Source of the DNA: a virus
Taxonomy: Duplodnaviria; Caudoviricetes
DNA: 64,000 bases
Reading direction: 5' to 3' (one strand)
Virus record (IMG/VR): IMGVR_UViG_3300042090_001530
Coordinates: 96,001-160,000 of that record
The notes under the pieces: model-generated
Told to the model about the DNA's origin: nothing
The model's input: only the letters and a program-made list of their open reading frames with translations
Databases searched by the model: none
Position numbers and translations under genes: made by a program
In this document: positions 4,556-62,759 of the stretch, piece by piece
Numbering within the stretch: the stretch's first letter is position 1
Layout of the letters: every line of letters starts with the position of its first letter

Positions 4556-4794
4556 CCATCGCCCACCTGTACGGCCTGTCCGGCACCTGCCTGCTCGGCA
4601 CCATCACCGTTCCCGGCGGCTGGCTGTGCGGTATCGACCGATGCCACGACTGCACGGACTGCCTCCACTGCCAGGCCGGCGACGAGTGTCCCGCAGGCGA
4701 CCATCGCAGGGTCGTGCACGGCTTCCAGCTCGAGCAGTTCCTCGCTGACCACAGCGGGGCCGCAGTCCTACTTCGAGCCGGGGCGGCCCAGTGA
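4552..4794 (+). CDS. hypothetical Cys-rich protein
   Basis: CGIDRCHDCTDCLHC; ATGA overlap. Confidence 0.55.
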   Translation: MTIAHLYGLSGTCLLGTITVPGGWLCGIDRCHDCTDCLHCQAGDECPAGDHRRVVHGFQLEQFLADHSGAAVLLRAGAAQ

Positions 4795-4865
4795 CCGCGA
4801 AACGCTTCAGCCACCTGATGCCGCGCGGGTGCTCCGTCCTTCAGGGCGGGGGTGAAGCGCGACGC

Positions 4866-5282
4866 TTAAACGGGCCTGTTCTGCTGCTCGATGTACTGGC
4901 GCAGCACACTGATCGGCGCACCGCCGACGGACCCGGCGAAGTACGAGCCGGACCACAGCCGCTGCGCCCGCCAGTAGTGCCGAACGAGGTCGGGAAACTC
5001 CTGGCGCATCCGCCGCGAGGAGACGCCCTTGAGCGAGTTCACGAGTTTGGAGATCGCGACCTTCGGCGGGAAGTCGACCAGCAGGTGGACGTGGTTGTCC
5101 TCGCCGTTGAACTCGACCAGTTCGCACTCGAAGTCGGCGCACACGTCCCGCATGATCTCCTCCATGCGCCGCAGGTGCCGGTCCTGGAACACGGAATGCC
5201 GATACTTGGTCACGAAAACCAAGTGTGCGTGCAGCGCGAAAACACAGTGCCTGCCAGTGCGGATCTCGTCATACGAAGCCAT
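4866..5282 (-). CDS. tnpA: IS200/IS605 Y1 HUH transposase
   Basis: HLVFVTKYR, HVHLLV (HUH), SLKGVSSR, LRQYIEQQ (catalytic Tyr). Confidence 0.96.
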   Translation of the reverse strand: MASYDEIRTGRHCVFALHAHLVFVTKYRHSVFQDRHLRRMEEIMRDVCADFECELVEFNGEDNHVHLLVDFPPKVAISKLVNSLKGVSSRRMRQEFPDLVRHYWRAQRLWSGSYFAGSVGGAPISVLRQYIEQQNRPV

Positions 5283-5303
5283 GAAACCAAGTATGATGGA
5301 AGA

Positions 5304-6536
5304 GTGCAGCTTCGGTACAACTTCCGCCTCGACCCGACACCCGGTCAGCGCATCGCGCTCGCCAAGGCATTCGGGTGCGCGCGGGTCGTATGGAACGACG
5401 CGCTCGCGCTGCGCAGGACCGCGCACGAGGCCGGGCAGCCCTGGCCGAAGACCGGCGATCTGTCCAAGACGCTGATCACCGAAGCGAAGCGCACCCCGGA
5501 GCGCGCATGGCTCGCAGACGCGCCGACCGGGGTTCTTCAGCAGTCGCTGCGCGACTTGGATGCGGCGTACCGGAGCTTCTTCGACTCGCTGTCCGGCAAG
5601 CGCAAGGGCCCGAAGGTCCGCGAGCCTAGGTTCAAGTCCCGCAAGGACAGTCGGCAGGCCGTCAGGTACACGGTCTCGGACCGGTTCGCGGTGCGGCCGA
5701 ATGGACGCCTGCGCCTGCCGAAGGTCGGCGAGGTGGCGGTGCGCTGGTCGCGCGAGTTGCCGTCCGTCCCTTCGTCCGTGACGATCATCAGGGATCCGTC
5801 GGGTCGCTACTTCGCGAGTTTCGTCATTGTCACCGACGAGGCTGTGGATTTGGGGCGCTTCCCGGCCGGTGACGACTACGCCGAGACCGGCATCGATCTC
5901 GGCCTGACGCACTTCGCGGTTCTGTCGGACGGCAAGAAGGTCGATGCGCCGAGGTTCCTGCGGCGGGCGGAGAAGAAGCTCAAGAAGCTGCAGCAGTCCC
6001 TCGCGCGCAAGGAGAAGGGCTCGAACAACCGCAGGAAGGCCGCCCTCAAGGTCGCCAAGCAGCATGCTCACGTCGCGGATGCGCGCCGGGATTTCCACCA
6101 CAAGTTGTCGACGACGTTGATCCGCGAGAACCAAGCGGTGTACGTCGAAGATCTGTGCGTGGCCGGTCTCGGACGCACCCGGTTGGCGAAGTCGGTGCAC
6201 GACGCGGGCTGGTCGTCGTTCGTCGGGATGCTGGAGTACAAGGCCGCGCGATACGGGCGGCACTTCGGGAAAATCGGCCGGTTCGAGCCGTCGTCGCAGA
6301 CGTGCACCGCATGCTGGGCGATCGACGGCAAGAAGCCGCTCTCGGTCCGCGAGTGGACGTGCTCCGGCTGCGGTGCCGTGCACGACAGGGACGTGAACGC
6401 GGCAAAGTACATACTGGCCGCGGGACGCGCGGACAGGGTAAACGCCTGCGGAGACCAGGTAAGACCGGGACTAGTCCCGGCACAGGTCGACGAAGCAGGA
6501 ACCCGCCGAAGCGAGCTCGCCGGGGCGACCCGGTGA
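5304..6536 (+). CDS. tnpB: RNA-guided endonuclease TnpB
   Basis: FGCARVVWN, RuvC GIDLG / VEDL / DRDVNAA all intact, zinc finger CTAC..CSGC; TATGAT -10 at 5292 suggests leaderless start. Confidence 0.95.
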   Translation: MQLRYNFRLDPTPGQRIALAKAFGCARVVWNDALALRRTAHEAGQPWPKTGDLSKTLITEAKRTPERAWLADAPTGVLQQSLRDLDAAYRSFFDSLSGKRKGPKVREPRFKSRKDSRQAVRYTVSDRFAVRPNGRLRLPKVGEVAVRWSRELPSVPSSVTIIRDPSGRYFASFVIVTDEAVDLGRFPAGDDYAETGIDLGLTHFAVLSDGKKVDAPRFLRRAEKKLKKLQQSLARKEKGSNNRRKAALKVAKQHAHVADARRDFHHKLSTTLIRENQAVYVEDLCVAGLGRTRLAKSVHDAGWSSFVGMLEYKAARYGRHFGKIGRFEPSSQTCTACWAIDGKKPLSVREWTCSGCGAVHDRDVNAAKYILAAGRADRVNACGDQVRPGLVPAQVDEAGTRRSELAGATR

Positions 6537-18043: not shown

Positions 18044-19588
18044 TTGGGGGACCTCGTGCACACTGCACGAGCACGACTTCGATCGGCACCCTGGCCGCTG
18101 CTGGGGGTGCTCGCGGTGCAGGCCGCATTCAGTCTCCGGCTCATCTGGACGCGCACCGCGTTCATAGACGAGGCCACATACATCTACGCAGGCCACGAGA
18201 TGATCGCGCACTGGCTGCACGGCATCCCGGTCCCGCCGTACCCGACGTGGCTTTCCGGTTCGCCTGCGCTGTACCCGCCGCTCGGCGCACTGGCCGACTC
18301 GCTCGGCGGCCTGGCCGGCGCCCGGCTGTTGGGCCTGGCGTTCATGCTCTCGGCCACGGTGCTGCTGTACTTCGCGGCCAAGCGCCTGTTCGACGGGCGC
18401 GCCGCACTGTTCTCAGCGATCCTGTTCGCCTCCCTCGCGGGCACGCAGTTCCTCGGCGCGTTCGCCACGTACGACCCGATGGCCCTGTTCCTGCTCGCGC
18501 TCTCAGCGTTCCTCGTGGTCCGGCACGGCGGCGGGAGCGGCCTGCGGGACGTGATCCTCTCCTGCCTCGTCGCGCCGGTCGTACTGGCGGTCGCGGACGC
18601 CACGAAGTACGCCACCGCCCTGTGGAACCCGGCCGTGATCGGCCTCGCCTTCATCGTCCCGATCACCGCAGGCGCGTCGAAGCGCGAGGCCGCCGGCCGG
18701 GCCGCAAGGTTCGCCGGGGTACTGGTCGCGGTGATCTGCGGGGCACTTTTCGGGATCGGGCACGGCGAGTACCTGCAGGGCATCGCCTACACGACGCTGG
18801 ACCGCAACGCGTCGGTCGGCGGCATGGGCCAGTCCCCGACCTCGGTACTCAAGAGCGCGTGGGAGTGGATCGGGATCGTCGTCGTGCTCGCCGCAGCCGG
18901 GATCGCCGTGCTGTGCGCCACGGACCGGCGCCGCTGGCGTTCGCCGCTGCTCGTGCTCGGCCTGCTGCTGTTCGCCGCCACCCTGGCCGCGCCGCTCGAA
19001 CAGGCCCGCATCGGCACGCTCGTGTCCCTGCAGAAGCACGTCGTGTACGGCGCCTGGTTCGGCTGCATCCCCGCCGGGTTCGCGCTCGCCCGGGTCCTGC
19101 GCTGGCGGCCCGCGTTCGCGGCCGGCGCCACCGCGGCGCTCGCACTGCTGCCGCTCGCGCTCGCCGCGCAGGCGTCCTCGTTCTACTCGTGGGGCCAGGA
19201 GAACCTCGCCTTCACGGCCGCGCTCAAGCCGCTCGTGCACCCGGGAACCGGCCGGTATCTGGTCGAGGGCTTCGACGACATCACCGCCTACTACGTCGGG
19301 GACGTCTACTCGATCCAGTGGAAGGAAGCCGGCACGGGCGATTTCCAGTACACCGACCCCGCCACCGGTAGGCGGCTGCCGAAGAACGGCGCGTCCCTGG
19401 CCGCCGCGGTGCGAGCCAAGTACTTCACGCTGATCATCCTGAATTTCGCCGAGCCCAACGACGCGCTCATCGCCGCCGACATCGCCAAGTACGGCGGGTA
19501 CCGGGTCGTCGCGACCCTGCCGCCGTCTGCGGTCGGCTCCAAGTCCGCCTACACGGTGTGGGCCGCTACAGGAAGCGCCGTCGTCTGA
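18044..19588 (+). CDS. GT-C fold membrane glycosyltransferase (GT39/ArnT/PMT-like); start uncertain
   Basis: multiple TM segments, first-loop acidic dyad AFIDEATY, ATYDPMALFLL. Confidence 0.85.
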   Translation: MGDLVHTARARLRSAPWPLLGVLAVQAAFSLRLIWTRTAFIDEATYIYAGHEMIAHWLHGIPVPPYPTWLSGSPALYPPLGALADSLGGLAGARLLGLAFMLSATVLLYFAAKRLFDGRAALFSAILFASLAGTQFLGAFATYDPMALFLLALSAFLVVRHGGGSGLRDVILSCLVAPVVLAVADATKYATALWNPAVIGLAFIVPITAGASKREAAGRAARFAGVLVAVICGALFGIGHGEYLQGIAYTTLDRNASVGGMGQSPTSVLKSAWEWIGIVVVLAAAGIAVLCATDRRRWRSPLLVLGLLLFAATLAAPLEQARIGTLVSLQKHVVYGAWFGCIPAGFALARVLRWRPAFAAGATAALALLPLALAAQASSFYSWGQENLAFTAALKPLVHPGTGRYLVEGFDDITAYYVGDVYSIQWKEAGTGDFQYTDPATGRRLPKNGASLAAAVRAKYFTLIILNFAEPNDALIAADIAKYGGYRVVATLPPSAVGSKSAYTVWAATGSAVV

Positions 19589-19701
19589 TGTTCTCTCGCT
19601 ATGACCTGATCTTGTTCGCCGCGCCCGCGCTGGGCTCGCTGCTGTCCATGTTCGCGGTGCGCGCCCTCTACCGCCGCGGCAAGGCGCTGGGGGACGTGTG
19701 A
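19588..19701 (+). CDS. small single-TM protein
   Basis: 37 aa, TGATG overlaps on both sides. Confidence 0.45.
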   Translation: MFSRYDLILFAAPALGSLLSMFAVRALYRRGKALGDV

Positions 19702-21662
19702 TGGACCACCACCATGACATCCCCACCGTCCGCCTGCGCTCGAGCGGCCGGATCGCGCTCGCTTCGATCGCCATGACGTCCCTGCTCGGCTGGGCCCTGT
19801 ACCGCGTGTTCTCCGCCAACTCGGCGCTGCACGGCCGCGACAACAACGTCCTGCTCTGGTCGGCGTTGTTCCTCGCCGCCGGGCATCAGGTGCTGCTCGC
19901 CTGGCGCGACAAGCCGTTCACCGTCACCGACGCCCAGCAGGCCGAACTCGACAAGCTGCACCTGACGGTGAACGTCCCGCTGTACAACGAGTCCCCGGAG
20001 ATCGTCGACCGGGTCATGTACGCCCTGTTCCACCAGTCGCGGCTGCCGCAGCGCATCGACGTCGTCGACGACGGATCCCGCGCCGAGTACCGGGCCGCAT
20101 ACGAGGAGATCCGCGCGTACTGGGCGGACCGGTTCGCCGAGACCGGCGCCGTGTTCACGTGGACGCGGCAGGCCAACGCGGGCAAGCGGCATGCGCAGGC
20201 CGTCACGTTCCGGGACGCCCCGGACGGCATCGTCGTCACCCTCGACTCTGATACGGCGCTCGAGCGCGGCGCCCTGGTCGAGGTGCTCAAGCCGTTCGCC
20301 GACCCGCGGGTGTTCTCGGTCGCGGGTGTTGAGATCGCGTTCAACGCCCGGCGCAACCTGCTGACCCGGATAGGTGCGCTGCGGCAGATCACCTGGCAGC
20401 TCGTCCAATGCTCCGCACTGAACCGGCGCGGGCAGATGCTGGTCAACCGCGGCACCTTCGCCGCCTATCGCACCGTCGTCGTGCAGGAGCGGCTGGCCGC
20501 CTACCTGGGCGAGACGTTCGCGGGCAAGCCCGTGAAGTACTCGGACGACTCGCTGCTCACCCTCTACGCCCTCTCGTACGGGCGCGCCGTGCAGCAGCTC
20601 ACCGCATTCCAGCTGCCTGAATACCCCGAGTACGTCAGCCATGCCCTCCGTCAATGGGCGAGATGGATGCGCGGCTCGACCATCAGGTCCCTGTGGCGCG
20701 CCAAGTACCTGCCAGTCCGATCCTACGGCTGGTTCATGAACACCCTCTCGTGGTGGCAGTTCGTCACCGCGACCATGGCCTACCTGTACGTGTGGGCGTA
20801 CCTGCCCGCCGAGGGACGGTTCGGGCTCGCGTCGGTCGCGATCGCCGTGGCGTGCACGTACCTGATGCCGCTTCGGTCGCTGCTGATAGACCGTTCCGAC
20901 GAGACGAGCGTGCAGCAGTTGGACACGTTCCTGCTCGCCCCCCTGTCCTGGGCGTGGTCGCTGCTGGTCCTGCGCCCGCTGCGCCTGTACGGTGCGCTCA
21001 CGTGCGCGAACAACGGGTGGGGTACGCGCTCGGCCGTGGAGGTCGGGTTCGCGCGCGACCATGGAACCATGGCACTCGATCCGCTGGCTGAGACCGCCGT
21101 CATCGCTACCACCTCGGACACCCTCACCCTCCCGCCGGTCGGCCGTCCGGCCCGGCACAGACGCCGCCGGGGATGGTTGCATCCGGTGCACCTGACCGCG
21201 TTCGGCGCGGTGACCGCCGCGGCGGCATGCGGCGCGGTGGTGGTGCTCGCCGGGACCTCGCCGAGCCCCGACCGGTTCGCGCCGGGCCCGCGCGCCGTAG
21301 TGTCGGCCAGGGCGGCGGCCACGATCACCATCCCCGCGATCACTGCGCCCGCTGCCGCGCCTACGCCAGGCGTAGGGGGGCAGGTGCCCGCGGCTGCGGT
21401 AAGCGTCCTTGGGCCGCCTTCCTCGACTCCGGCAGCCATCCCGCCGCCGACCGTGCCGGGGCCCGGCACGGTCGCAGCCTCAAGCGGCACGACCGCCGCC
21501 GTGCCGCCGGCTCCGATGCCAACGAAGACTCCAACGGCCTCGCCGTCCGCATCCGTGACGCCGACCGCGAGCGCGGCCCCAAGCGTCTCCTCAAGTCCGT
21601 CGGCGTCCGCGAGCATCTCGCCGAGCGCCACGATCACTACGCCGACCGGGAGCCCGGAATGA
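19701..21662 (+). CDS. processive GT2 synthase (hyaluronan/chitin synthase/NodC-like) with Pro/Ser/Thr-rich C-tail
   Basis: VPLYNE, VVDDGS, NAGKRHAQ, TLDSDT, YSDDSLLT, LRQWARW (QxxRW); N- and C-terminal TM helices. Confidence 0.9.
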   Translation: MDHHHDIPTVRLRSSGRIALASIAMTSLLGWALYRVFSANSALHGRDNNVLLWSALFLAAGHQVLLAWRDKPFTVTDAQQAELDKLHLTVNVPLYNESPEIVDRVMYALFHQSRLPQRIDVVDDGSRAEYRAAYEEIRAYWADRFAETGAVFTWTRQANAGKRHAQAVTFRDAPDGIVVTLDSDTALERGALVEVLKPFADPRVFSVAGVEIAFNARRNLLTRIGALRQITWQLVQCSALNRRGQMLVNRGTFAAYRTVVVQERLAAYLGETFAGKPVKYSDDSLLTLYALSYGRAVQQLTAFQLPEYPEYVSHALRQWARWMRGSTIRSLWRAKYLPVRSYGWFMNTLSWWQFVTATMAYLYVWAYLPAEGRFGLASVAIAVACTYLMPLRSLLIDRSDETSVQQLDTFLLAPLSWAWSLLVLRPLRLYGALTCANNGWGTRSAVEVGFARDHGTMALDPLAETAVIATTSDTLTLPPVGRPARHRRRRGWLHPVHLTAFGAVTAAAACGAVVVLAGTSPSPDRFAPGPRAVVSARAAATITIPAITAPAAAPTPGVGGQVPAAAVSVLGPPSSTPAAIPPPTVPGPGTVAASSGTTAAVPPAPMPTKTPTASPSASVTPTASAAPSVSSSPSASASISPSATITTPTGSPE

Positions 21663-22705
21663 GCAGGCGCATCTGGATCCTCGCGGCGGCCGTCGTGCTC
21701 GCGTGCGCAGCCGGGGGAGCGGGCCTGGCTGCCGACGGGCACGGGCCTGCGGCCCGCACGGTGGCCGCGGCGGGCGCGGCACGCACCAGTGCGGCCTCGA
21801 ACCCGGCGAGACCCTCAGCGTCCGCCGCGGCGCCCGCAGTGCCCGTGAACGCCGCGCCGTACACCGACCCGGCGGGCAAGTACCTGGGTGTCGCGCTCCC
21901 GGCCGGCACTGCGGGTCTCGCCGGGTTCGCCGCCTCGACCGGTGTCCACCCGGACTTGTGGGAGACGTATGCCGGCTGGGGCGAGGCGTTCCCGACGTCG
22001 GATGCCACCTCGGCGTGGTCGCAGGGCGCGATGACCCTTGTGGCGTGGCAGACGGACTCCACGAGCCTCACGTCGATCGCGGACGGCGGTAGCGACGCCT
22101 ACCTTGAGCGGTTCGCCGCCGCGGTCCACGTTTTCGCGCACCCGGTGATGATCGGCATCGACCACGAGATGAACGGCGACTGGTACCCGTGGGGCACGCA
22201 AGCCGTCACCCCGGCCCGGTTCGTCGCGGCCTGGCGGCACATCCACGACATCTTCGTGGCCGCCGGGGACGACAACGTCCTGTGGGTGTGGGCGCCCAAC
22301 GTCGTCAACCCTGTGCCCAACGTCGCCCTTCAGCCGTACTACCCGGGCAACGCGTACGTGGACATCGTCGGGATCACGGGCTACTACACGGGCGAGATCG
22401 GCGAGGACTCGTATGCGGGATTGTTCGGCCGCACCGAAACAATCGTCGAACAATTCTCTGACCGGCCGTTTCTCGCATCCGAGACAGGCGTCGAGCAAGG
22501 TGCAGACAAGGCCGCGTGGGTCAGCAACCTGATCGACGGAGTGAAGGCGGACCCGCAGATGCTCGGGTTCGTGTACTTCGACTTCGGCGCCGCCCAGGGC
22601 AAACGCGCGGACTGGACGCTGCAAGACGACCCGGCCGCGCTCACCGCCTACCGGACCGACGCGGCCACGATCACTGAAGCCGCCATCTCGAACGGAGCGC
22701 GCTGA
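21659..22705 (+). CDS. secreted/anchored GH26 glycoside hydrolase
   Basis: signal-like N-terminus; HEMNGDWYPW (acid/base), WVWAPN, YPGNAYVDIVG, LASETG (nucleophile). Confidence 0.88.
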   Translation: MSRRIWILAAAVVLACAAGGAGLAADGHGPAARTVAAAGAARTSAASNPARPSASAAAPAVPVNAAPYTDPAGKYLGVALPAGTAGLAGFAASTGVHPDLWETYAGWGEAFPTSDATSAWSQGAMTLVAWQTDSTSLTSIADGGSDAYLERFAAAVHVFAHPVMIGIDHEMNGDWYPWGTQAVTPARFVAAWRHIHDIFVAAGDDNVLWVWAPNVVNPVPNVALQPYYPGNAYVDIVGITGYYTGEIGEDSYAGLFGRTETIVEQFSDRPFLASETGVEQGADKAAWVSNLIDGVKADPQMLGFVYFDFGAAQGKRADWTLQDDPAALTAYRTDAATITEAAISNGAR

Positions 22706-24513
22706 TGGTGCAGACCACGCCCGCATTCATGATCGACGGCCCGAGTACGGTCGACCGCGACGACGCGATCCGCCTCGAGGAGAACCCGGACGGCACCCGC
22801 ACGCTCATCGTGTACGTCGCCGACCTGACGGCCGCGCTCGACACTGATCCGGGCCTACTAGGCGTGGCGCTCGACCGCGGCGCGTCGCAGTACCGGCGAC
22901 AGGTGGCGGTGGAGACGATGCTGCCGGACGACGTCCAGGCAGCGTGCACTCTCGCCGAGGACACTGCCCGGCCGGTCCTGGAGATACGGCTGCCACTCGA
23001 CCCCGCGGGCGTCGTAGGCGACGCGGTATTGGGGCGCAGCGTGCTGTCTGGCGCAGTTGCCTTGTCGCACGAGCAGGCCGCGTTCGCGGTCGCGGACCGG
23101 CGCCATCCGCACCACAAGCCGCTGACGGCGCTGCGAGAGGTCGCCGAGGCGCTCTTTCGTGCCCGCTACGGCGCGTCTTCGGCGTTCTACGACTTCACGC
23201 GAGGCGTCTTCGTGGACGAGGACGGCGCGCTAGTGAAGGTGAAGGCCGCGCACGTCGTCGGGCACCTGATCGTCCAAGAGGCGATGATCGCGGCGAACCG
23301 GGCGGTCGCAGAGTGGGCGATCCGCGAGGACGTCCCGATCATGTTCCGTAACCACGCGGCCGCAGTCTCGGCCCCGCCTGCTGCCGTGCACCTCGAAGAC
23401 TTGTCGGCCGCGCTGCGCAGCGACGACCCCGCAGAACTGGCGACGTGGTTGGCGCGGGCCGAACTCACCGGACGCCGGGCCCGGTACGACGCGTACCCGC
23501 GTGAGCATCACGGGCTCGGCATCCCCGCCTACTGCCACAGTACGAGCCCGCTGCGCCGGGCCGCGGACCTGATCACGCAGCGTTCGATCGTCGCCCGCTT
23601 GGACGGGCGGGCGGCGCCGTTCACGGTGGAGGATGTCGCCGGGTTCTCCGAGCGGCTCACGGTCGTGATCGCGGAGGCGAAGTCGGCGAGCAGCACGGCC
23701 AGTCGGGAACGCGCGCACGAGCAGGCGCGGCAGATCCTGGACCAGGGCGCCGACTATTCGAGGATGAGCGCGGCCCGGTTCTTCGCGCTCGTCAAGCGCG
23801 CGACGAAGGAAGGCATCGCGTCGCCCGGGTTCCTGACCGAGGTCACCCGCCGCGCCGACACTGACATGTTCGAACTGCGCGACCTCTACCACCTGATCCT
23901 GCTGCCGACCGGCACCGAGTGGCTGGCAGCGAAGTCGGCGTGCCTCGCTCAGGTGTCGCGGCATCCGGAGCACGCGGTGAGCCTCGTGGCGATGTGGGCT
24001 CAGACCAGAGGCGTCGAACAGCCCGCGTACTCGCATTCGGCGGCCGGCCCGTCGCATCGACCGGCGTTCACCGCGAGCGGTGCCGTGGCCGGCCGTGACG
24101 GGGTGCAGGTCTCGGGTGCGGCCCGGACCGCGGCCTCGAAGGGGTCCGCGCAAGCCCAAGCAGCGCTCAGTCTGCTCGCCGCACTCGCTGGCGTCCCTGA
24201 CTGCTCGACGGATGCAGCCATCCCGATCGAACCGGCATCCGAGCCGAAGCAGCCGACGCTCACGGGCGATCCGCTCCGGGCGTTGAATCACGCGCGCAAT
24301 ACCGGGCTGCTCTCGCGTGTGGAGTGGGTGGTCCAGCAAGGTGCAGCGGCGGACGGCCAGCCGCTGTTCGACGCACACCTCACCGCGCAGCGCCGCCCAG
24401 GCGCGGCGGTCGAGGGCCGGGGCCGCGCGGCAACGAAGAAGGCGGCGAAGGCTGCCGCTGCGGCCGACCTCGTGGACCGCCTGAAGACGACCGCCTCGAA
24501 TGGAGCGAACTGA
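22705..24513 (+). CDS. RNB-domain (RNase II/R) ribonuclease fused to two dsRNA-binding domains
   Basis: IDGPSTVDRDDA, QEAMIAAN, HSTSPLRRAAD; dsRBD-like GPSHRPAF...SKGSAQAQAA and ...GRAATKKAAKAAAA. Confidence 0.85.
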   Translation: MVQTTPAFMIDGPSTVDRDDAIRLEENPDGTRTLIVYVADLTAALDTDPGLLGVALDRGASQYRRQVAVETMLPDDVQAACTLAEDTARPVLEIRLPLDPAGVVGDAVLGRSVLSGAVALSHEQAAFAVADRRHPHHKPLTALREVAEALFRARYGASSAFYDFTRGVFVDEDGALVKVKAAHVVGHLIVQEAMIAANRAVAEWAIREDVPIMFRNHAAAVSAPPAAVHLEDLSAALRSDDPAELATWLARAELTGRRARYDAYPREHHGLGIPAYCHSTSPLRRAADLITQRSIVARLDGRAAPFTVEDVAGFSERLTVVIAEAKSASSTASRERAHEQARQILDQGADYSRMSAARFFALVKRATKEGIASPGFLTEVTRRADTDMFELRDLYHLILLPTGTEWLAAKSACLAQVSRHPEHAVSLVAMWAQTRGVEQPAYSHSAAGPSHRPAFTASGAVAGRDGVQVSGAARTAASKGSAQAQAALSLLAALAGVPDCSTDAAIPIEPASEPKQPTLTGDPLRALNHARNTGLLSRVEWVVQQGAAADGQPLFDAHLTAQRRPGAAVEGRGRAATKKAAKAAAAADLVDRLKTTASNGAN

Positions 24514-25016
24514 TGCCCGAGACCACGATCACTACCGCCGTGGAGGCCGTGTCCGAGCGGCTTCGCACGGAGATCACCGCCGCATTGACTGCTGTCCTCG
24601 CGCAGTGGGACGAGCGGGAGGTGGACGCGACGAAACGCGCCGGATTCCTGCTCGGCGACTTCACCGAAGCAATGCTCGACGTGTTCGAGTCCAAGACGGC
24701 CGAGCAGTACGGCGTGGACATCGCCGGGCAGACCAGGCTGCGGGAACTCGCGTACCGCGACGGCACGCTCCATATGGAGCTCGACGCGGCCCACGAGATC
24801 ATGATCGCGCTTGTCGCAGCAGCGCGCACGATTCTCGGCGACGCTCAGAACTACGTGGAGATGGAGTTGAAGTCCGCGGAGTCGCTGGACCGGTTCGTAC
24901 TGACGATTCAGCGGGCCGGGAAGTTGACGCCGCATGAGGCGCGGTTGAAGGCGGAGGCCGAGCGTGACGCGCTGCGGGCTGAACTCGATGCGCTGAAGGC
25001 GGCGAGCAATGCTTGA
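24513..25016 (+). CDS. hypothetical phage protein
   Basis: TGATG overlap; C-terminal coiled coil. Confidence 0.6.
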   Translation: MPETTITTAVEAVSERLRTEITAALTAVLAQWDEREVDATKRAGFLLGDFTEAMLDVFESKTAEQYGVDIAGQTRLRELAYRDGTLHMELDAAHEIMIALVAAARTILGDAQNYVEMELKSAESLDRFVLTIQRAGKLTPHEARLKAEAERDALRAELDALKAASNA

Positions 25017-25759: not shown

Positions 25760-25976
25760 CCGGAATCTGATCACGACTTGCCCGGCGTGCGGTCACCACA
25801 CGAGCGCTGCGATTGCGGGACGCTGCACAGCCATCGTCCCCGGGCCGACGGACGGGCCGATGATCCAGGTCTGCGGGTGTAACTGCTACAAGGCGCTGAC
25901 CGGTAAGGACATGCACGAGGAGTTCGCGGAACTCATGTGGGGCAAGCCCAGCGCGACGGAGGACTCCGATGCTTGA
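25752..25976 (+). CDS. hypothetical Cys-rich protein
   Basis: CPACGH..., CGCNC. Confidence 0.55.
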   Translation: MSDRNLITTCPACGHHTSAAIAGRCTAIVPGPTDGPMIQVCGCNCYKALTGKDMHEEFAELMWGKPSATEDSDA

Positions 25977-26493
25977 GCAACTCACGCTGGACCCGGACCC
26001 GGACCCGGACGCGTTCGCCCCGACCCGATCCGCAGTCATCTCCGAGGACGGCCTGTACCGCTACCGCCTGGACCGGCGGTGGGCTGACAGTCCGTCGATC
26101 GTGTGGCTGATGCTGAACCCGTCAACCGCTGACGCGGAGGCGGAAGACGCCACCAGCAGGCGTGTGCAGGCGTTCTCTCGCGCTTGGGGTTTCGGCGCGC
26201 TGACGATCGTCAACCTCTACGCATACCGCGCCACAGATCCGCACGCGCTCTGGCTCGCAGCCGATCCGGTCGGGCAGGAGAACGACGCCTACCTGGCCGA
26301 GGCCTGCGCCCAGTCCGATGTGATCGCGGCGTGGGGTGCGAACGCCCGGCCGGACCGGATCGCTGAGGTGCTCGCGCTGCCCGGCATGGCCCGTGTGCAG
26401 GCGCTAGAGGTGACGAAGGCCGGTCAGCCGCGGCATCCGCTGTACCTGCGCGGCGACCTGACCCCGCAACCATGGGAGAACCCGAATGTCTGA
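25969..26493 (+). CDS. DUF1643-domain protein
   Basis: YRYRLDRRW...MLNPSTAD...NLYAYRATDP...GQPRHPLY. Confidence 0.88.
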   Translation: MLEQLTLDPDPDPDAFAPTRSAVISEDGLYRYRLDRRWADSPSIVWLMLNPSTADAEAEDATSRRVQAFSRAWGFGALTIVNLYAYRATDPHALWLAADPVGQENDAYLAEACAQSDVIAAWGANARPDRIAEVLALPGMARVQALEVTKAGQPRHPLYLRGDLTPQPWENPNV

Positions 26494-27327: not shown

Positions 27328-27490
27328 CCGCCTGCTGCGCCGCGGGTTCTGGGTCCGCTGCCAGCATCACTCGCAACGCTGGCCGCACTGGCGGTCCTGC
27401 CTGCGCGGGCAGTCGTACGACCACTTCTGCTTGGACCACAACGGCAGTTGCTTCAACGGCAGTTGCCACTATCCGAAGGGGGCTCGCTAA
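27320..27490 (+). CDS. 56-aa Cys/His/Trp-rich peptide
   Basis: GGAGG RBS, 8-nt and TAATG overlaps; internal CAACGGCAGTTGC x2. Confidence 0.5.
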   Translation: MLDRLLRRGFWVRCQHHSQRWPHWRSCLRGQSYDHFCLDHNGSCFNGSCHYPKGAR

Positions 27491-28332
27491 TGCCTGCACG
27501 TCGGACGCTCTTCGTCGATCCCGGCCAGAAGTTCGGACGCGGAACCGTTATCGACCCCGAGGTCAAGGTGGGGCCATCAGGGCAGCAGCGCGGCGCGCGG
27601 CTCGAATGCGAGTGTGGCAATGAGTACTCGGCAAGCCTCAAGTACCTGCTCAACGGCAATACGCAGTCCTGCGGCTGCTTGAGGCGAGGAGTTGTGCAGC
27701 CGGAACTCGACATGGGCGCCCGGCACGGCAGCCTCACCTTCACTGGCGGAACCCGCTACGAGAAGCGGTTCTGGATCCTGGAGTGCACGTGTGACTGCGG
27801 AAACCAGGCTGATGTCCGCTTCGATCGCTGGGGCAAAAACGGCTATTGCACCGAGTGTGCCGCCGTGGCCCGCGGGGCGGCACGCACGGATCACGGACTC
27901 TCGAGGACTGGGGCCTACTCGTCGTGGTGCGCCATGATCGACCGATGCACTCGCCCGAACGCCACGGGCTGGGAGTACTACGGCGGGCGCGGCATCACCG
28001 TGTGCCAGCGGTGGCTTGAGGACGTTCGGAACTTCGTTGCCGATATGGGCGAGCGCCCCGAGGGCACGTCGATCGATCGCATCGACGTCAACGGAAATTA
28101 TGAGCCGGGGAACTGTCGGTGGGCGACCGTGCTCGAGCAGAACAACAACAAGCGGCCGCCGCGGCGCGCGAGGACGTGCCGGCGGGGGTTGCACCCTCGG
28201 ACGCCGGAGAACCTGTACCGCAACCGGACCACTGGCACGTATACGTGCAAGCCGTGCGCCAAGAAGCGGGCGGCGGACAGTTACCTGCGGCTGAAGGCTG
28301 AGCCGCAGCTCGACGCGCCCGCGAAGAAGTAG
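27490..28332 (+). CDS. HNH homing-endonuclease-like protein
   Basis: CECG..TQSCGC, YYGGRGITVC, SIDRIDVNGNYEPGNCRWAT. Confidence 0.9.
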   Translation: MPARRTLFVDPGQKFGRGTVIDPEVKVGPSGQQRGARLECECGNEYSASLKYLLNGNTQSCGCLRRGVVQPELDMGARHGSLTFTGGTRYEKRFWILECTCDCGNQADVRFDRWGKNGYCTECAAVARGAARTDHGLSRTGAYSSWCAMIDRCTRPNATGWEYYGGRGITVCQRWLEDVRNFVADMGERPEGTSIDRIDVNGNYEPGNCRWATVLEQNNNKRPPRRARTCRRGLHPRTPENLYRNRTTGTYTCKPCAKKRAADSYLRLKAEPQLDAPAKK

Positions 28333-34866: not shown

Positions 34867-36063
34867 TTACCTTCGCAGGCGCGCTGGTTCCTGCTTCACG
34901 GACCGGCCAACACCGAGGTCTCCACAGGCTGTCACGGCAAGCCCTGCCGCGAGTATGTTCTTCGCCGCGTTCACGTCGGCGTGGTCTCGGTGGCCGCAAG
35001 CCGTGCACGCGAACACCGCTTGGCTCTCACGGCTGTTCGCGTCCACCCGCTTGCACCGATGGCACGTCTGGGACGTGTACGCGGCGGGGACTTTCTTCAC
35101 CCCCGACCCCGTGTAGCGGGCTGCGGAGCGCAGTGCTGTCTCGAACTGGTACCAGCCCTTGTCCAAGATGGCGCGGTTCAGGCCGGACTTCTGCGCGACG
35201 TTGCGGCCCGGGGCGTCGAGCGTGCCGGCCGCGGTCTTGGTCATGTTCCGGGTCTTGAGATCCTCGAGGACGATCAGGGCGTGGTCGCGGGTCAACCCGT
35301 GTGCGGTCTGGGCGCAGAAGTCCGCCCTACGTTCGACCGGCGCCCGGTGCGCCTTCGCGAGCAGGGCCGCGGTCTTCTTCCGGTTGCTCGAGCCGCGCTT
35401 GGACCGGGCGAGTTTCTGCTGCAGCCGACGCCGGTGCTCGAGCTCGCCGGGGGTGGCGAACACCTGGTCGTGCAGGTCGCCGTCCGATGTGGCGGCAGCG
35501 ACCACGACGCCGCGGTCCACACCTACCGCAGTGTCCGGCAGGGCGTGGGTTTCGGCCGGGATCTCGCCGTCTTCGACGAGGAAACTGACGTACCAGTGCC
35601 CGGTCTTGAACGACACCGTCGCGTTGCGGATCACGCCGCCGAGCGGCCGGGACCAGCGGAATTTCACCCAGCCGAACTTTGGAAGCTTGACGCGGGCATG
35701 ACTCCGATTGAGTTGCTCCACCGCCATCCACTTGCCTTCGGAAAGGCGAAACGACGGCTTCCACCGTGTCTTGGAGCGCCAGTGCACGGCGAAGGTGCCG
35801 TGCTTGCGGCACGCCTTGTCCAGGTCCATCAGGGTCTGCTGGAGAACGCAGGACGGCGCCTCGGCGAGCCACGGGAACTCGCGCTTCGCCTCGGCGAGCT
35901 CGGCGGCCTGCTGCTCGTAGTTGATCCACGCGCCGCGCTGCCGGTAGATCCGCCGCTGCTCCAGCGCGGTGTTCCACACGTCCCGGCACGCCGCGCCCAC
36001 CTGCTCCGCATAGGCGACCTGAGCGGGCGTCAACTCCAACCGGTACCGGCGCGCGGTGAGCAT
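34867..36063 (-). CDS. tnpB: RNA-guided endonuclease TnpB
   Basis: GVDRG / LEDL / HADVNAA, CHRC..CTAC; TGATG-coupled to tnpA. Confidence 0.95.
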   Translation of the reverse strand: MLTARRYRLELTPAQVAYAEQVGAACRDVWNTALEQRRIYRQRGAWINYEQQAAELAEAKREFPWLAEAPSCVLQQTLMDLDKACRKHGTFAVHWRSKTRWKPSFRLSEGKWMAVEQLNRSHARVKLPKFGWVKFRWSRPLGGVIRNATVSFKTGHWYVSFLVEDGEIPAETHALPDTAVGVDRGVVVAAATSDGDLHDQVFATPGELEHRRRLQQKLARSKRGSSNRKKTAALLAKAHRAPVERRADFCAQTAHGLTRDHALIVLEDLKTRNMTKTAAGTLDAPGRNVAQKSGLNRAILDKGWYQFETALRSAARYTGSGVKKVPAAYTSQTCHRCKRVDANSRESQAVFACTACGHRDHADVNAAKNILAAGLAVTACGDLGVGRSVKQEPARLRR

Positions 36064-36461
36064 CAGGCCTTCTTCTGGTTCTCGACGTACCGCTTGACGG
36101 CCTCCAGCGGCGCACCGCCGACCGTGGCGACGAAGTACGAGTTCGTCCACAGGGTGGGGAGTTTCGTCGTCAGGTACGGGAACTCCTGGCGCAGGAGCCT
36201 CGATGAGCGGCCCTTGATGGCTTTGACGAGGCGGTGGATGCCGTACTGCGGGTCGACTTCGACGAGCAGGTGGACGTGGTCCGGCATGCATTCGAGTTCG
36301 ATAAGCCATGCGCCCTTCTCGTCGACCACTTCCCGGATGATCTCCTTGAGGCGCTCCTCCATCCGGCCGCCGATCACGCGGCGCCGGTACTTCGGGCACC
36401 ACACGACGTGGAACGCGCACTGGAACGCGATGTTCCTGTTCGCGCGCAAGGTGACGGCCAT
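36063..36461 (-). CDS. tnpA: IS200/IS605 transposase
   Basis: HVVWCPKYRR, PDHVHLLV, WTNSYF, VKRYVENQK; TATACT -10 six nt upstream (leaderless). Confidence 0.96.
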   Translation of the reverse strand: MAVTLRANRNIAFQCAFHVVWCPKYRRRVIGGRMEERLKEIIREVVDEKGAWLIELECMPDHVHLLVEVDPQYGIHRLVKAIKGRSSRLLRQEFPYLTTKLPTLWTNSYFVATVGGAPLEAVKRYVENQKKA

Positions 36462-52198: not shown

Positions 52199-52933
52199 GT
52201 GGCCAAGCTGTGCCAGATCGTCGCCGTCGAGAAGTCGGTGAAGTCCAAGTCGTTCGCGGACCTCACCGAAGCGCATCACGCGTTGCAGAAGCCCGCGCTG
52301 CTCGCCGGGATCTCCCGCACCTACCAGCCCAAGGACGAGGAAGGCGACACGTTCCCGCCCGAGTCCACGAAGGTCCAGGTGCGCGCCGAGGACGTGATCG
52401 AACGCACCGCGGCGAACCTCACCCGGCTGTTCGACGTGACCGCAACGAAGGAGTGGGCGAACTGCACGGCCCGGGCGGACGTGAAGCTCCCGGACGGCAC
52501 GGTGCTCGTGCACCAGGCGCCGGTCACGTACCTGCTGTTCCTGGAGAAGCAACTGGTCGACCTGGCGACGTTCGTGAAGAAGCTGCCGGTGCTCGACGCG
52601 GCCGAGTCGTGGGAGCACGACCCTGCGTCCAACGCGTGGCGCACCCCCGCGGTGCAGACGAACCGGTCGAAGAAGGTCTACCGCAACCACATCAAGGCCG
52701 AAGCCACCGATAAGCACCCGGCTCAGGTCGAGACGTACACCGAAGACGTGACCGCCGGGCACTGGACGACCACGAAGTTCTCCGGCGCCCTGCCGGCGAC
52801 GCGGGTTAAGGAGCTCGCCGAGCGGGTGGAGACGCTGCACCACGCCGTGAAGTTCGCGCGCGAGGAGGCCAACGGGGCCGAGGTGACGGATCGTCTGGTC
52901 GGCGAGGCCGTGTTCGGTTACCTGTTCGCGTGA
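52199..52933 (+). CDS. conserved actinobacterial/phage protein of unknown function (DUF7873-like)
   Basis: KLCQIVAVEKSVKSK..ISRTYQPKDEEG..VTYLLFLEKQL..KHPAQVE..KFSGAL..VKFAREEAN; family recalled from memory, not searched. Confidence 0.75.
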   Translation: MAKLCQIVAVEKSVKSKSFADLTEAHHALQKPALLAGISRTYQPKDEEGDTFPPESTKVQVRAEDVIERTAANLTRLFDVTATKEWANCTARADVKLPDGTVLVHQAPVTYLLFLEKQLVDLATFVKKLPVLDAAESWEHDPASNAWRTPAVQTNRSKKVYRNHIKAEATDKHPAQVETYTEDVTAGHWTTTKFSGALPATRVKELAERVETLHHAVKFAREEANGAEVTDRLVGEAVFGYLFA

Positions 52934-55425: not shown

Positions 55426-55428
55426 GGG

Positions 55429-62306: not shown

Positions 62307-62759
62307 TCATCCCGCAAGGACTGGATCCCAGCCGGGTACGACGGTCAGCGGGATGCCTTCGCGCACCCACAGGGCGCAGGGCTCGGGCCGGTCGTCGTAC
62401 GCGTGCACGGGCCTGTATCGGAGCCGGATCTTCGCAAGGATCTCAGCCTTGATGACCTCGTCGGGCCGGCAGTCGTTATTCGGCCGCATGTACATGGCGT
62501 CGCTCGGAACCGAGTGCAATGCCAAGGTCCACGCGCTCACGTGCCGGTAGCGGATCTGCCGGGCGGTCGTGATCAGGATGGCGCGGCCGAGCTTGGCGTG
62601 CTCGCGCAACTCGTCCACGACCCACTGGTTGACGGGGCAGTTGACGCTGGCCATGTGGAAGGCGTGGAAACGGCCGGGACCGTTGATCAGATGCCGGATG
62701 CCGCGAACGTCGACGATCGTGCCATCAAGATCCGCGATGACGGCCTCGGGCAGGATCAC
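62307..62759 (-). CDS. HAD-family phosphatase, T4 Pnk 3'-phosphatase-like
   Basis: ADLDGT, TTAR, LYM-like AMYMR..D.RPDEVIK, YDDRP. Confidence 0.85.
   Translation of the reverse strand: MILPEAVIADLDGTIVDVRGIRHLINGPGRFHAFHMASVNCPVNQWVVDELREHAKLGRAILITTARQIRYRHVSAWTLALHSVPSDAMYMRPNNDCRPDEVIKAEILAKIRLRYRPVHAYDDRPEPCALWVREGIPLTVVPGWDPVLAG

What the first reader, a model, noticed from the sequence alone, without database searches (positions are those of the whole stretch)
22705..24513. RNase II/R catalytic domain fused to two dsRBDs, lacking CSD and S1
Seen: RNB starts almost at the N-terminus with the acidic motif IDGPSTVDRDDA and SPLRR intact, followed by two dsRBD-like repeats. Known: RNase II/R normally use cold-shock and S1 domains to thread ssRNA, and dsRBDs bind duplex RNA. 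Inference: an element-encoded exoribonuclease retargeted to structured or duplex RNA, such as antisense pairs, defence RNAs or the tRNA-like RNAs at 53 kb.
Basis: partly seen in the sequence, partly recalled or inferred. Interest (0 to 1): 0.7.

Follow-up and report, generated by a model that had tools for sequence, protein, structure and literature searches.

The report
Phage RNase II-type exonuclease with dsRNA-binding tail
A 202-kb phage of high-GC soil bacteria encodes an apparently active RNase II/R-type RNA-chewing enzyme whose usual single-strand RNA-gripping domains are replaced by two double-stranded-RNA-binding domains; it belongs to a sizeable, unstudied family carried mainly by large phages and plasmids.

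Summary
ORF 22705-24513 (+) encodes a 602-aa protein. It has a complete RNB catalytic domain starting at residue 5, with all four motif-I aspartates, the Tyr clamp and the catalytic Arg. A four-helix module of no known family follows, then two dsRBDs (aa 421-496 and 522-599). There is no room for cold-shock domains and no S1 domain.

The window lies in a real tailed phage (terminase, portal, tape measure). The gene is translationally coupled to its neighbours but has no conserved partner gene.

The architecture is a conserved family, not a one-off. There are 375 clusters (50% identity) at E<1e-30. Members sit on large phages, on 75 plasmid records (Rhodococcus, Streptomyces, Acaryochloris and others) and patchily in bacterial genomes. 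I found no paper on it. This scan has already met the same design in at least six other genomes.

Best reading: a solitary 3'-5' exoribonuclease recruited to duplex or structured RNA through its dsRBDs. The biological target is unknown. The proposed link to the tRNA-like RNAs at 53 kb is not supported: their partner gene co-occurs in 1 of 5 genomes. This is a new variant of a known enzyme kind, of moderate interest.

The parts
22705..24513 (+). Whole gene for the RNB-dsRBD exoribonuclease, 602 aa (P0001)
   Evidence: ORF list and translation; GC3 0.86; 84-51% identical orthologues in related phage contigs.
22717..23739 (+). RNB catalytic domain, aa 5-345. The Pfam match covers 5-299; the C-terminal long helix to about aa 345 belongs to the RNB fold.
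   Evidence: Pfam RNB E=3.6e-40. The family profile aligns positions 8-343 to B. subtilis RNase R 255-622 at E=4.8e-57. Foldseek matches RNase R, RNase II and Rrp44 at E about 1e-17.
22732..22767 (+). Motif I, IDGPSTVDRDDA (aa 10-21), carrying the four metal-binding aspartates D11, D17, D19 and D20
   Evidence: Aligned residue by residue to RNase II D201/D207/D209/D210; at least 90% conserved in the family.
23506..23568 (+). Motif IV, H268...Y276-H278-x-T-S-P-L-R284-R285-x-x-D288, carrying the catalytic Arg (RNase II R500 equivalent)
   Evidence: Alignment to 2id0; H268, Y276, H278, S281, P282, L283, R284, R285 and D288 are invariant in 24 sequences.
23356..23505 (+). Shortened 'tri-helix wedge' region between motifs III and IV (aa 218-267), modelled as three short helices of low confidence
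   Evidence: Helices 218-221, 226-238 and 242-256 at pLDDT 55-68. The segment is about 18 residues shorter than in RNase II and about 22 shorter than in B. subtilis RNase R (alignments). The wedge role is taken from PMC5714204.
23770..23961 (+). Conserved four-helix module (aa 356-419) of no known family, always placed before dsRBD1
   Evidence: Model helices 356-369, 374-385, 391-399 and 404-419 at pLDDT 90-96. No Pfam hit. The Atlas finds it only in the same family. It is duplicated together with a dsRBD in P0010 and in Streptomyces SNF2 helicases.
23965..24192 (+). dsRBD1 (aa 421-496). The GPxH...F loop (G448-P-S-H451...F455) is kept; the KKxAK motif is reduced to K479-G-S-A-Q.
   Evidence: Pfam dsrm 425-493, E=3.6e-4, below the cut-off. 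VIA Z 7.6-8.0 to HYL1, TRBP2 and DRB4 dsRBDs. G448, F455 and K479 are nearly invariant; A482 and Q485 are invariant.
24193..24267 (+). Flexible linker (aa 497-521), variable in length and sequence
   Evidence: pLDDT below 50 at aa 508-520; poorly conserved columns.
24268..24501 (+). dsRBD2 (aa 522-599). The canonical KKxAK is intact (K578-K-A-A-K582). Helix 1 reads LNH where the family has LNE. The GPxH loop is lost in this subclade.
   Evidence: VIA Z 10.6 (DCL4 dsRBD2), 10.4 (TRBP) and 10.1 (Staufen dsRBD5). Profile hit to TARBP2 at E=2.3e-16. K578 and K582 are invariant.
22694..22707 (+). Upstream coupling junction: GGAGCG, 3 nt, then TGATG. The stop of the GH26 gene overlaps the ATG of the nuclease gene by one base.
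   Evidence: Sequence read directly.
24502..24515 (+). Downstream coupling junction: GGAGCG, 3 nt, then TGATG. The stop of the nuclease gene overlaps the ATG of a 167-aa ORF (24513-25016) of unknown function.
   Evidence: Sequence read directly. No + strand terminator-like site between 17 and 31 kb.

Best explanation
The gene encodes a catalytically competent, hydrolytic 3'-to-5' exoribonuclease of the RNase II/R (RNB) superfamily. It works on its own, without a dedicated partner protein. In it, a four-helix module plus two tandem dsRBDs take the place of the CSD1-CSD2 and S1 domains.

Proposed mechanism:
1. The flexible dsRBD tail docks on an A-form duplex, such as a stem of a structured RNA or a sense-antisense pair.
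2. This raises the local concentration of the RNB domain. Without CSD and S1, the mouth of the RNB channel is exposed.
3. The RNB domain engages the nearby 3' end and degrades it processively to nucleoside monophosphates.

Within the phage, the gene is expressed as part of a long, translationally coupled rightward operon. It most likely serves turnover of duplex or structured RNA, phage or host, during infection.

Shown here: the domain architecture, the intact active-site residues, the conserved dsRBD RNA-contact motifs, family-wide conservation, carriage by phages and plasmids, and the absence of a conserved partner.

Inferred: nuclease activity, duplex preference, whether the enzyme unwinds duplexes or stalls at them, and the in vivo substrates.
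For: - RNB domain well above threshold and complete.
- All residues known to be needed in RNase II are present and conserved across 24 relatives: D201, D207, D209, D210, Y253, E390 and R500 equivalents.
- The RNB is closer to RNase R than to RNase II: 113.6 against 57-63 bits in NCBIfam, and 197 against 135 bits against the PDB.
- Two dsRBD folds, supported by profile, Foldseek and VIA-align. The lysines K578 and K582 of KKxAK are invariant, and the GPxH/F positions are nearly invariant.
- The family is under purifying selection over its whole length. There are 375 clusters (50% identity) at E<1e-30, and most of the 150 listed align from about aa 8 to beyond about aa 495.
- The family is monophyletic against canonical RNase R (quick tree, SH-aLRT 99).
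- No conserved neighbour in 17 loci, nor in the closest relatives.
Against: - No biochemical or expression data exist for any member. No RNA-seq run holding this DNA was listed, which is neither for nor against.
- The region equivalent to the RNase R tri-helix wedge, which is needed for unwinding, is 18-22 residues shorter here and is modelled with low confidence. The enzyme may stall at duplexes as RNase II does.
- In this protein each dsRBD has lost one of the three canonical RNA-contact elements: KKxAK is degenerate in dsRBD1, and GPxH is lost in dsRBD2.
- The best structural matches of dsRBD2 include protein-binding 'type B' dsRBDs (TRBP dsRBD3, Staufen dsRBD5, DCL4 dsRBD2). One of the two domains could therefore mediate protein contacts or dimerisation rather than RNA binding.
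Confidence: 0.6

Rival explanations
1. Bulk RNA scavenger or host shut-off enzyme. The nuclease degrades host rRNA and other structured host RNA, docking by its dsRBDs on rRNA helices, in order to stop host translation and supply ribonucleotides for phage DNA synthesis. Duplex docking would be only a way to reach abundant structured RNA, not a specific targeting device.
For: - In the 323-kb phage contig L004 the homologue lies beside a nucleoside 2-deoxyribosyltransferase-like gene and a dNMP kinase.
- The carrying phages checked are all large, 94-323 kb.
- In the Streptomyces genomes sampled, no RNB gene was found in 76 of 201. The common cellular RNB protein there is a different, distant ~480-aa form.
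- RNase R is known to degrade ribosomes (titles).
Against: - The nucleotide-metabolism neighbourhood is seen in one locus only.
- Here the neighbours are polysaccharide genes and unknown small ORFs.
- The family also sits on large plasmids, with 75 records, and plasmids gain nothing from destroying host ribosomes.
Confidence: 0.17
2. Counter-defence or RNA-hygiene factor of mobile elements. The nuclease removes dsRNA or structured RNAs that would otherwise trigger or guide host immunity. Candidates are sense-antisense duplexes from convergent transcription, crRNA-tracrRNA or other guide duplexes, retron-type or toxin-antitoxin RNAs, and RNA triggers of cyclic-nucleotide signalling.
For: - The family is carried mainly by elements that must evade host defence. 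These include at least three separate phage lineages (tree) and 75 plasmid records, mostly large actinobacterial plasmids.
- Its distribution in cellular genomes is patchy: 2 of 201 Streptomyces species, one of them on a 338-kb linear plasmid.
- The phage genome switches from rightward to leftward genes about 6 kb downstream, so convergent transcripts are plausible.
Against: - No PADLOC hit and no recurring defence or anti-defence neighbour.
- A cyanobacterial member lies among housekeeping genes.
- Nothing identifies a target RNA.
Confidence: 0.12
3. Component of a phage RNA repair or quality-control kit. The nuclease trims or removes damaged structured RNAs (tRNAs, or the tRNA-mimic Y-RNA-like transcript at 53 kb) together with the phage's RlaP nucleotidyltransferase and Thg1-like 3'-5' polymerase. 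This would be analogous to the Ro60/Y-RNA/PNPase machine, with dsRBDs replacing Ro60 as the adaptor.
For: - This phage encodes RlaP (62759-63706, minus strand), a Thg1-like protein (genome 171613-171987) and DUF7873.
- A Thg1-like gene lies two genes downstream of the orthologue in a related phage contig, and about 10 kb away in provirus G207.
- RlaP is adjacent to the homologue in L004.
- An RNA ligase lies within 8 kb in L140.
Against: - Co-occurrence is partial. DUF7873 is found in 1 of the 5 other carriers searched. RlaP and Thg1 are each in 2 of the 5 phage records searched, counting this phage.
- None of these genes is a constant neighbour.
- In this window the genes are 28-39 kb apart and on the opposite strand.
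- An earlier follow-up on a plasmid copy rejected an RNA-repair module.
Confidence: 0.08
4. The RNB domain is a pseudo-nuclease, and the protein acts only as a dsRNA-binding or scaffolding protein, as yeast Ssd1 does.
For: Inactive RNB proteins exist (Ssd1, 7am1, appears among the fold matches). The wedge region is shortened.
Against: All four motif-I aspartates, Y63, E192 and R284 are present and conserved across the family. Pseudo-nucleases have lost these residues.
Confidence: 0.03

Closest known systems
Bacterial RNase R (E. coli Rnr, PDB 5xgu; B. subtilis, 8cdu; M. genitalium, 7dcy)
   Same: It shares the RNB catalytic fold and the full set of active-site residues. RNase R is the best sequence and structure match. 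Processive hydrolytic 3'-5' decay is therefore expected, and the RNase R nuclease domain alone is known to attack duplex RNA (PMC5714204).
   Different: It has no HTH, CSD1 or CSD2 at the N-terminus and no S1 or basic tail at the C-terminus. It scores 113.6 bits against the RNase R equivalog cut-off of 597.85. The tri-helix wedge region is about 22 residues shorter. A four-helix module and two dsRBDs are added. It is carried by phages and plasmids rather than being a housekeeping gene.
E. coli RNase II (PDB 2id0, 2ix0, 2ix1)
   Same: Active-site residues map one to one: D201, D207, D209, D210, Y253, E390 and R500.
   Different: RNase II clamps ssRNA between CSDs and S1 and stalls before duplexes. 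Here that clamp is absent and duplex-binding domains are attached instead.
Deinococcus radiodurans RNase II-family protein DR0020 (PDB 2r7d, 469 aa)
   Same: It is the best single-sequence PDB match (E=1.3e-18). It is another naturally shortened RNB protein with a reduced set of RNA-binding domains.
   Different: DR0020 keeps an N-terminal ~85-aa region before the RNB domain and has no dsRBD (one search shows the RNB starting at chain residue 87).
Tandem-dsRBD proteins (TRBP/TARBP2, Loquacious, Staufen, HYL1, DRB4) and the dsRBD of RNase III
   Same: Both C-terminal domains have the alpha-beta-beta-beta-alpha fold with GPxH and KKxAK motifs. The two domains are joined by a flexible linker, as in TRBP dsRBD1-2.
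   Different: Those proteins are either non-catalytic partners of endonucleases or, in RNase III, carry one dsRBD fused to an endonuclease. None is fused to a processive exonuclease. In bacteria the dsRBD is otherwise known almost only from RNase III (my own knowledge).
The same uncharacterised RNB-dsRBD family elsewhere (NCBI 'RNB domain-containing ribonuclease', for example on Rhodococcus, Gordonia, Dietzia and Streptomyces plasmids)
   Same: It has the same architecture and a monophyletic family. ESM Atlas clusters of 76 and 350 members carry RNB plus dsrm. The design was already met by this scan in at least six other genomes.
   Different: This copy belongs to a distinct clade of phage-borne sequences, 51-84% identical to each other and 36-40% identical to the Streptomyces copies. 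In this clade dsRBD2 has lost the GPxH loop.

Membership tests
RNase II/R (RNB) superfamily | RNB domain detected above the curated threshold over its full length | tested here: met
   Pfam PF00773 at 138.7 bits against 29.3, profile positions 7-324 of 326.
RNase II/R (RNB) superfamily | Catalytic residues: four motif-I Asp, Tyr clamp, motif-III Glu, motif-IV Arg | tested here: met
   D11, D17, D19, D20, Y63, E192 and R284 align to RNase II D201, D207, D209, D210, Y253, E390 and R500. They are conserved in 24 relatives.
RNase II/R (RNB) superfamily | Mg2+-dependent processive 3'-5' exoribonuclease activity | not testable with these tools
   Needs a biochemical assay.
Canonical RNase R / RNase II orthologues | N-terminal CSD1-CSD2 and C-terminal S1 flanking the RNB domain | tested here: not met
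   RNB starts at aa 5 and only 9 codons are open upstream. There is no CSD or S1 Pfam hit. The region after RNB is helical and then dsRBDs.
Canonical RNase R / RNase II orthologues | Score above the NCBIfam equivalog cut-offs | tested here: not met
   RNase R TIGR02063 at 113.6 against 597.85; RNase II TIGR02062 at 57.7 against 641.9.
dsRBD (dsrm, PF00035) | alpha-beta-beta-beta-alpha fold, twice | tested here: met
   Secondary structure 422-495 and 523-599. VIA Z 10.6 for dsRBD2 and 7.6-8.0 for dsRBD1. Foldseek matches to TRBP and MLE tandem dsRBDs.
dsRBD (dsrm, PF00035) | Sequence match to the family model | tested here: met
   This protein alone is sub-threshold (21.5 against 23 bits, one domain only). 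But 22 of 24 relatives match, best E 1.4e-14. The family profile hits TARBP2 at E=2.3e-16 with two stretches.
dsRBD (dsrm, PF00035) | RNA-contact motifs: helix-1 Glu, GPxH loop, KKxAK | tested here: inconclusive
   At family level all three motifs are present in both domains (consensus). In this protein dsRBD1 keeps GPxH but has KGSAQ. dsRBD2 keeps KKAAK but has lost GPxH and has His in place of the helix-1 Glu.
dsRBD (dsrm, PF00035) | Binding to A-form dsRNA | not testable with these tools
   Needs EMSA or a similar assay.
Known anti-phage defence systems (PADLOC-DB) | Match to a defence-protein model, or a conserved multi-gene system | tested here: inconclusive
   No PADLOC hit. No conserved neighbour in 17 loci plus 8 further contexts. 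Absence from a 2023 library does not exclude a role in defence.
Ro60/Y-RNA-type RNA quality-control machine | Constant co-occurrence with the Y-RNA-like RNA and its partner gene (DUF7873) | tested here: not met
   DUF7873 was found in 1 of 5 other carriers. In this phage it lies 28 kb away.

The most novel reading that the evidence does not exclude
The family is a mobile-element tool for dsRNA control. It would be a processive exonuclease that docks on RNA duplexes and erases them, a job that no characterised bacterial or phage enzyme is known to do exonucleolytically. Large phages and plasmids of Actinomycetota and other phyla would use it to remove sense-antisense or guide-RNA duplexes. That would let them escape RNA-sensing or RNA-guided host immunity, or regulate their own antisense control.
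Probability: 0.15. Interest if true: 0.75.

Novelty: new variant of a known kind. Interest (0 to 1): 0.5.

Why it matters
RNase II/R enzymes are textbook ssRNA-threading exonucleases with a nearly fixed CSD-CSD-RNB-S1 layout. In bacteria the dsRBD is essentially the signature of the endonuclease RNase III.

A conserved family that joins the RNB engine to tandem dsRBDs would be a new way of selecting substrates for 3'-5' decay. Its strong bias towards large phages and plasmids hints that dsRNA or structured RNA is a contested molecule in conflicts between mobile elements and their hosts in Actinomycetota.

The family is large, intact and easy to express, so one set of in vitro assays could settle its specificity. 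The accompanying helix-bundle-plus-dsRBD module, which is also fused to SNF2 helicases, could define a wider set of bacterial dsRNA-directed enzymes.

Tried and rejected
- ARAGORN and Rfam (gathering thresholds) found no RNA gene in the window. I could not confirm the 53-kb tRNA-like RNAs myself; only earlier notes of this scan describe them.
- PADLOC: no hit.
- Megablast of the region against the phage and plasmid collections: no match.
- Search for a conserved partner gene: none in 17 loci. The ORFs immediately downstream in the two closest contexts are unrelated to the window's 167-aa ORF.
- Complex prediction of the nuclease with the downstream 167-aa ORF: no verdict, score 0.00. I tried it because a SUKH/SMI1 immunity-type gene follows the cyanobacterial homologue.
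- No RNA holder listed. Only a wetland DNA metagenome, probably the source sample, holds the gene.
- Pfam families for HK97 capsid and TerL_ATPase missed the phage. PHROGs then found terminase, portal, tape measure and tail fibre.
- Four-helix module: no Pfam hit, and no Atlas feature hit outside the family.
- Literature searches for an RNB-dsRBD enzyme or a phage RNB enzyme found nothing relevant. The 224-jumbo-phage survey PMC7824862 mentions no RNB or RNase II/R.
- Rejected: that the phage copy derives from the common Streptomyces RNB gene. That ~480-aa protein is only 26% identical (pairwise E=0.001) and has no dsRBD.
- Rejected: the antisense ORF 23230-24378 (minus strand, 382 aa) as a gene. 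It is a high-GC shadow of the + strand frame. It failed the codon-position GC filter that the + strand gene passes.


Full report
**1. The observation**

The window is high-GC (0.66-0.72). ORF 22705..24513 (+) is open for 602 codons and has the codon-position GC pattern of real genes in this genome (GC3 0.86).

Pfam places a complete RNB domain at aa 5-299 (E=3.6e-40). NCBIfam's RNase R model matches only its positions 253-581, far below the equivalog cut-off.

Residue-level alignment to E. coli RNase II shows every residue known to matter is in place. D11, D17, D19 and D20 correspond to D201, D207, D209 and D210. Y63 corresponds to Y253, E192 to E390 and R284 to R500.

The open frame extends only 9 codons upstream of the ATG, so cold-shock domains cannot be hidden there. 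The segment after RNB is helical rather than an S1 barrel.

**2. The C-terminal half**

Pfam on this sequence alone gives one sub-threshold dsrm hit (aa 425-493, 21.5 bits against 23). I therefore built the family.

A search of 5.8 billion proteins found 24 full-length relatives. Most carry precomputed RNB and dsrm hits. Their alignment (A1) shows two blocks with the dsRBD signatures: helix-1 LNE..Q, the GPxH..F loop, and KKxAK.

Further support:
- 22 of 24 members hit dsrm, best E 1.4e-14.
- The A1 profile hits RNase R (E=4.8e-57). Separately it hits TARBP2 with two stretches (E=2.3e-16), and also Loquacious, Staufen, ADAR2, PKR and RNase III-type dsRBDs.
- AlphaFold2 on A1 (pLDDT 85) gives two alpha-beta-beta-beta-alpha units at 422-495 and 523-599, joined by a disordered linker.
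- Foldseek returns RNase R, RNase II and Rrp44 for the N-terminal half, and TRBP dsRBD1-2, MLE and Loqs for the tail.
- A separate model of aa 300-602 (pLDDT 87.7) was aligned to 48,161 PDB representatives. It gives Z 10.6 for dsRBD2 and Z 7.6-8.0 for dsRBD1 (HYL1 at rmsd 1.3 over 71 residues).

Between RNB and dsRBD1 lies a confidently modelled four-helix module (aa 356-419). It has no Pfam match and no structural neighbours outside this family in the ESM Atlas.

So the layout is: RNB (5-345), four-helix module (356-419), dsRBD1 (421-496), flexible linker, dsRBD2 (522-599). The helical module is an addition to it.

**3. What carries the gene**

The window is bases 96001-160000 of a 202,490-bp IMG/VR virus record that CheckV rates 98% complete.

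Two Pfam capsid and terminase models missed it. PHROGs found a large terminase, a portal fusion, a 1382-aa tape measure and a tail fibre in the left arm. It is therefore a genuine large tailed phage of a high-GC host.

The gene sits in a rightward, terminator-free run. The order is: PMT-like glycosyltransferase (18044-19588), GT2 synthase (19698-21662), secreted GH26 (about 21662-22705), then the nuclease, then small unknown ORFs, DUF1643, an HTH protein and an HNH endonuclease.

Both ends of the nuclease gene have the same coupling signal, GGAGCG-N3-TGATG, in which stop and start codons overlap.

**4. The family and its distribution**

An exhaustive HMMER scan of 1.84 billion cluster representatives gave 375 proteins at E<1e-30. 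Most of the 150 listed align from about aa 8 to beyond aa 495.

ESM Atlas holds clusters of 76 and 350 members with RNB in 100% and dsrm in 99% and 71% respectively. They are mostly Actinomycetota.

In GTDB species genomes the full-length form is patchy. It occurs in a few Streptomyces and Kitasatospora, in Glycomycetaceae, in Ktedonobacteria, in a Chthonomonadaceae MAG, in a Candidatus Taylorbacteria genome and in a Pararhizobium.

Among 201 Streptomyces species, 125 have some RNB gene. That gene is generally a different ~480-aa protein, only 26% identical and without dsRBDs in the one copy examined. Only 2 species have the RNB-dsRBD form, and one of those copies lies on a 338-kb linear plasmid.

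PLSDB holds 75 plasmid records with the family: Rhodococcus 33, Acaryochloris 14, Pseudomonas 6, Streptomyces 5, Gordonia 4, Mycolicibacterium 4 and others.

IMG/VR holds four further full-length copies:
- a complete 115-kb phage with terminal repeats (63% identical);
- a 94-kb provirus;
- contigs of 137 kb and 323 kb.

A quick maximum-likelihood tree (the careful search was not finished) gives these results:
- The family separates from canonical RNase R (SH-aLRT 99).
- This protein falls in a 9-member clade (support 100) whose known contexts are all phage.
- That clade is sister to a Streptomycetaceae clade.
- Two other phage lineages appear elsewhere in the tree.

The family is thus mainly cargo of large mobile elements, exchanged repeatedly. 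One cyanobacterial member does sit among housekeeping genes. Earlier follow-ups in this scan reached the same picture on other genomes.

**5. Partners**

I compared all ORFs within 10 kb in 17 loci and found no gene family that travels with the nuclease beyond close relatives.

A 51%-identical orthologue keeps the PMT-like/GT2/GH26 genes upstream. The 82%- and 63%-identical ones do not. That arrangement is therefore local synteny.

The ORFs immediately downstream are unrelated between the closest contexts. A complex prediction with the window's downstream ORF gave no verdict.

RNA-repair-type genes do recur loosely:
- Thg1-like genes occur in this phage, in provirus G207, and two genes downstream in the 51% orthologue's contig.
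- RlaP occurs in this window (62759-63706, minus strand) and next to the homologue in the 323-kb contig.
- An RNA ligase lies within 8 kb in one Streptomyces locus.

None of these is constant. DUF7873 is the partner gene of the tRNA-mimic RNA that earlier notes describe at 53 kb. It is present here but in only 1 of 5 other carriers.

**6. Mechanism**

Established knowledge: in RNase II/R the CSDs and the S1 domain form the ssRNA anchor above the RNB channel. [quoted passage not shown] A tri-helix wedge in the RNB domain is needed for unwinding (PMC5714204, read).

Here the RNB is closer to RNase R than to RNase II. It is naturally free of CSD and S1, and it carries two flexibly linked dsRBDs whose RNA-contact lysines are invariant across the family.

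The most economical model has three steps. The tail docks on an A-form helix. The exposed RNB channel captures the adjacent 3' end. Hydrolysis-driven threading then degrades the strand.

Two cautions apply. First, the wedge region is 18-22 residues shorter than in RNase II/R and is poorly modelled, so the enzyme might stall at a duplex rather than read through it. Second, each dsRBD of this particular protein has lost one canonical motif, and dsRBD2 resembles protein-binding dsRBDs as much as RNA-binding ones.

The biological role is open. It could be general turnover or scavenging of structured RNA, dsRNA hygiene or counter-defence, or RNA quality control. I rank general duplex and structured-RNA turnover first because there is no conserved partner and the carriers are diverse.

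**7. Novelty**

I found no paper on an RNB-dsRBD enzyme. A survey of 224 jumbo phages mentions no RNB enzyme. In the UniProt viral structure set the RNB fold appears almost only in giant eukaryotic viruses, never together with a dsRBD.

Databases do annotate the family automatically as 'RNB domain-containing ribonuclease'. I therefore class it as a new, uncharacterised variant of a known enzyme kind, not a new kind. This copy is one more member, and notably a phage-borne one.

The same helix-bundle-plus-dsRBD module is also fused to SNF2 helicases in Streptomyces. This suggests a wider repertoire of bacterial dsRNA-directed enzymes.

Noticed in passing
L127:4780-9252 (+) and L129:1958-5827 (-), Streptomyces chromosomes; also L128:3677-5245: The four-helix-plus-dsRBD module of this nuclease is also found, once or twice per protein, at the N-terminus of ~1300-1500-aa SNF2-family helicases (DUF3670 + SNF2 + Helicase_C). 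It also occurs as a stand-alone 523-aa protein. Nine of the 201 Streptomyces species sampled carry it apart from an RNB gene, most of them in helicase-sized ORFs (three fetched and scanned with Pfam). These are candidate dsRNA-directed translocases.
   Followed up: partly
L142:1610-3049 (-), a Streptomyces chromosome; similar ORFs in about 120 of the 201 Streptomyces species sampled: The common Streptomyces RNB protein is a ~480-aa form that also lacks recognisable CSD and S1 domains. In the copy examined its motif I reads DPPTSRDLDQA, so the fourth aspartate is Gln. It may be an atypical or inactive RNB enzyme.
   Followed up: partly
window 18044-22705 (+): There is a translationally coupled polysaccharide cassette inside the phage: a PMT/GT-C-like membrane transferase, a GT2 synthase and a secreted GH26 hydrolase. 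It is conserved in the same order upstream of the nuclease in a 51%-related phage contig (L133) but not in closer relatives.
   Followed up: partly
window 62759-63706 (-); genome 171613-171987 (-), outside the window: The phage encodes an RlaP-family (RNA-ligase-associated Pol-beta) nucleotidyltransferase and a Thg1-like 3'-5' polymerase. Together with DUF7873 at 52199-52933, this looks like an RNA-repair or tRNA-maintenance gene set scattered over the right arm.
   Followed up: partly
window 4791-6536 (+) and 34867-36420 (-); genome 10899-12836 (+): Three TnpB/IS605-OrfB-like genes (phrog_506, E down to 1e-114) lie in one phage genome.
   Followed up: no
genome 32178-35996 (+), outside the window (L131:9179-12994): A 1272-aa portal protein is fused to a NUDIX hydrolase region and to a segment with weak similarity to RNA ligase.
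   Followed up: no
L138:9871-10434 (+), cyanobacterial MAG: A SUKH/SMI1_KNR4 immunity-type gene directly follows the cyanobacterial RNB-dsRBD homologue. This hints that at least there the nuclease might be paired with an inhibitor. No equivalent was recognisable in the phage.
   Followed up: partly
P0010 (802 aa, Streptomyces sp. NPDC048638), locus L140:8001-10409: This variant of the family has the helical module and dsRBD duplicated, giving three dsRBDs. It lies near an RNA ligase, a MoxR-type AAA/VWA pair and a prokaryotic RING protein.
   Followed up: no
window 54280-56334 (-): A methyltransferase (phrog_13505) and a radical-SAM protein are adjacent. They could be a nucleic-acid modification pair.
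   Followed up: no
window 25969-26493 (+) and 27448-28332 (+): A DUF1643 protein (E=1e-39) and an HNH endonuclease (phrog_374) lie in the same rightward run, downstream of the nuclease.
   Followed up: no
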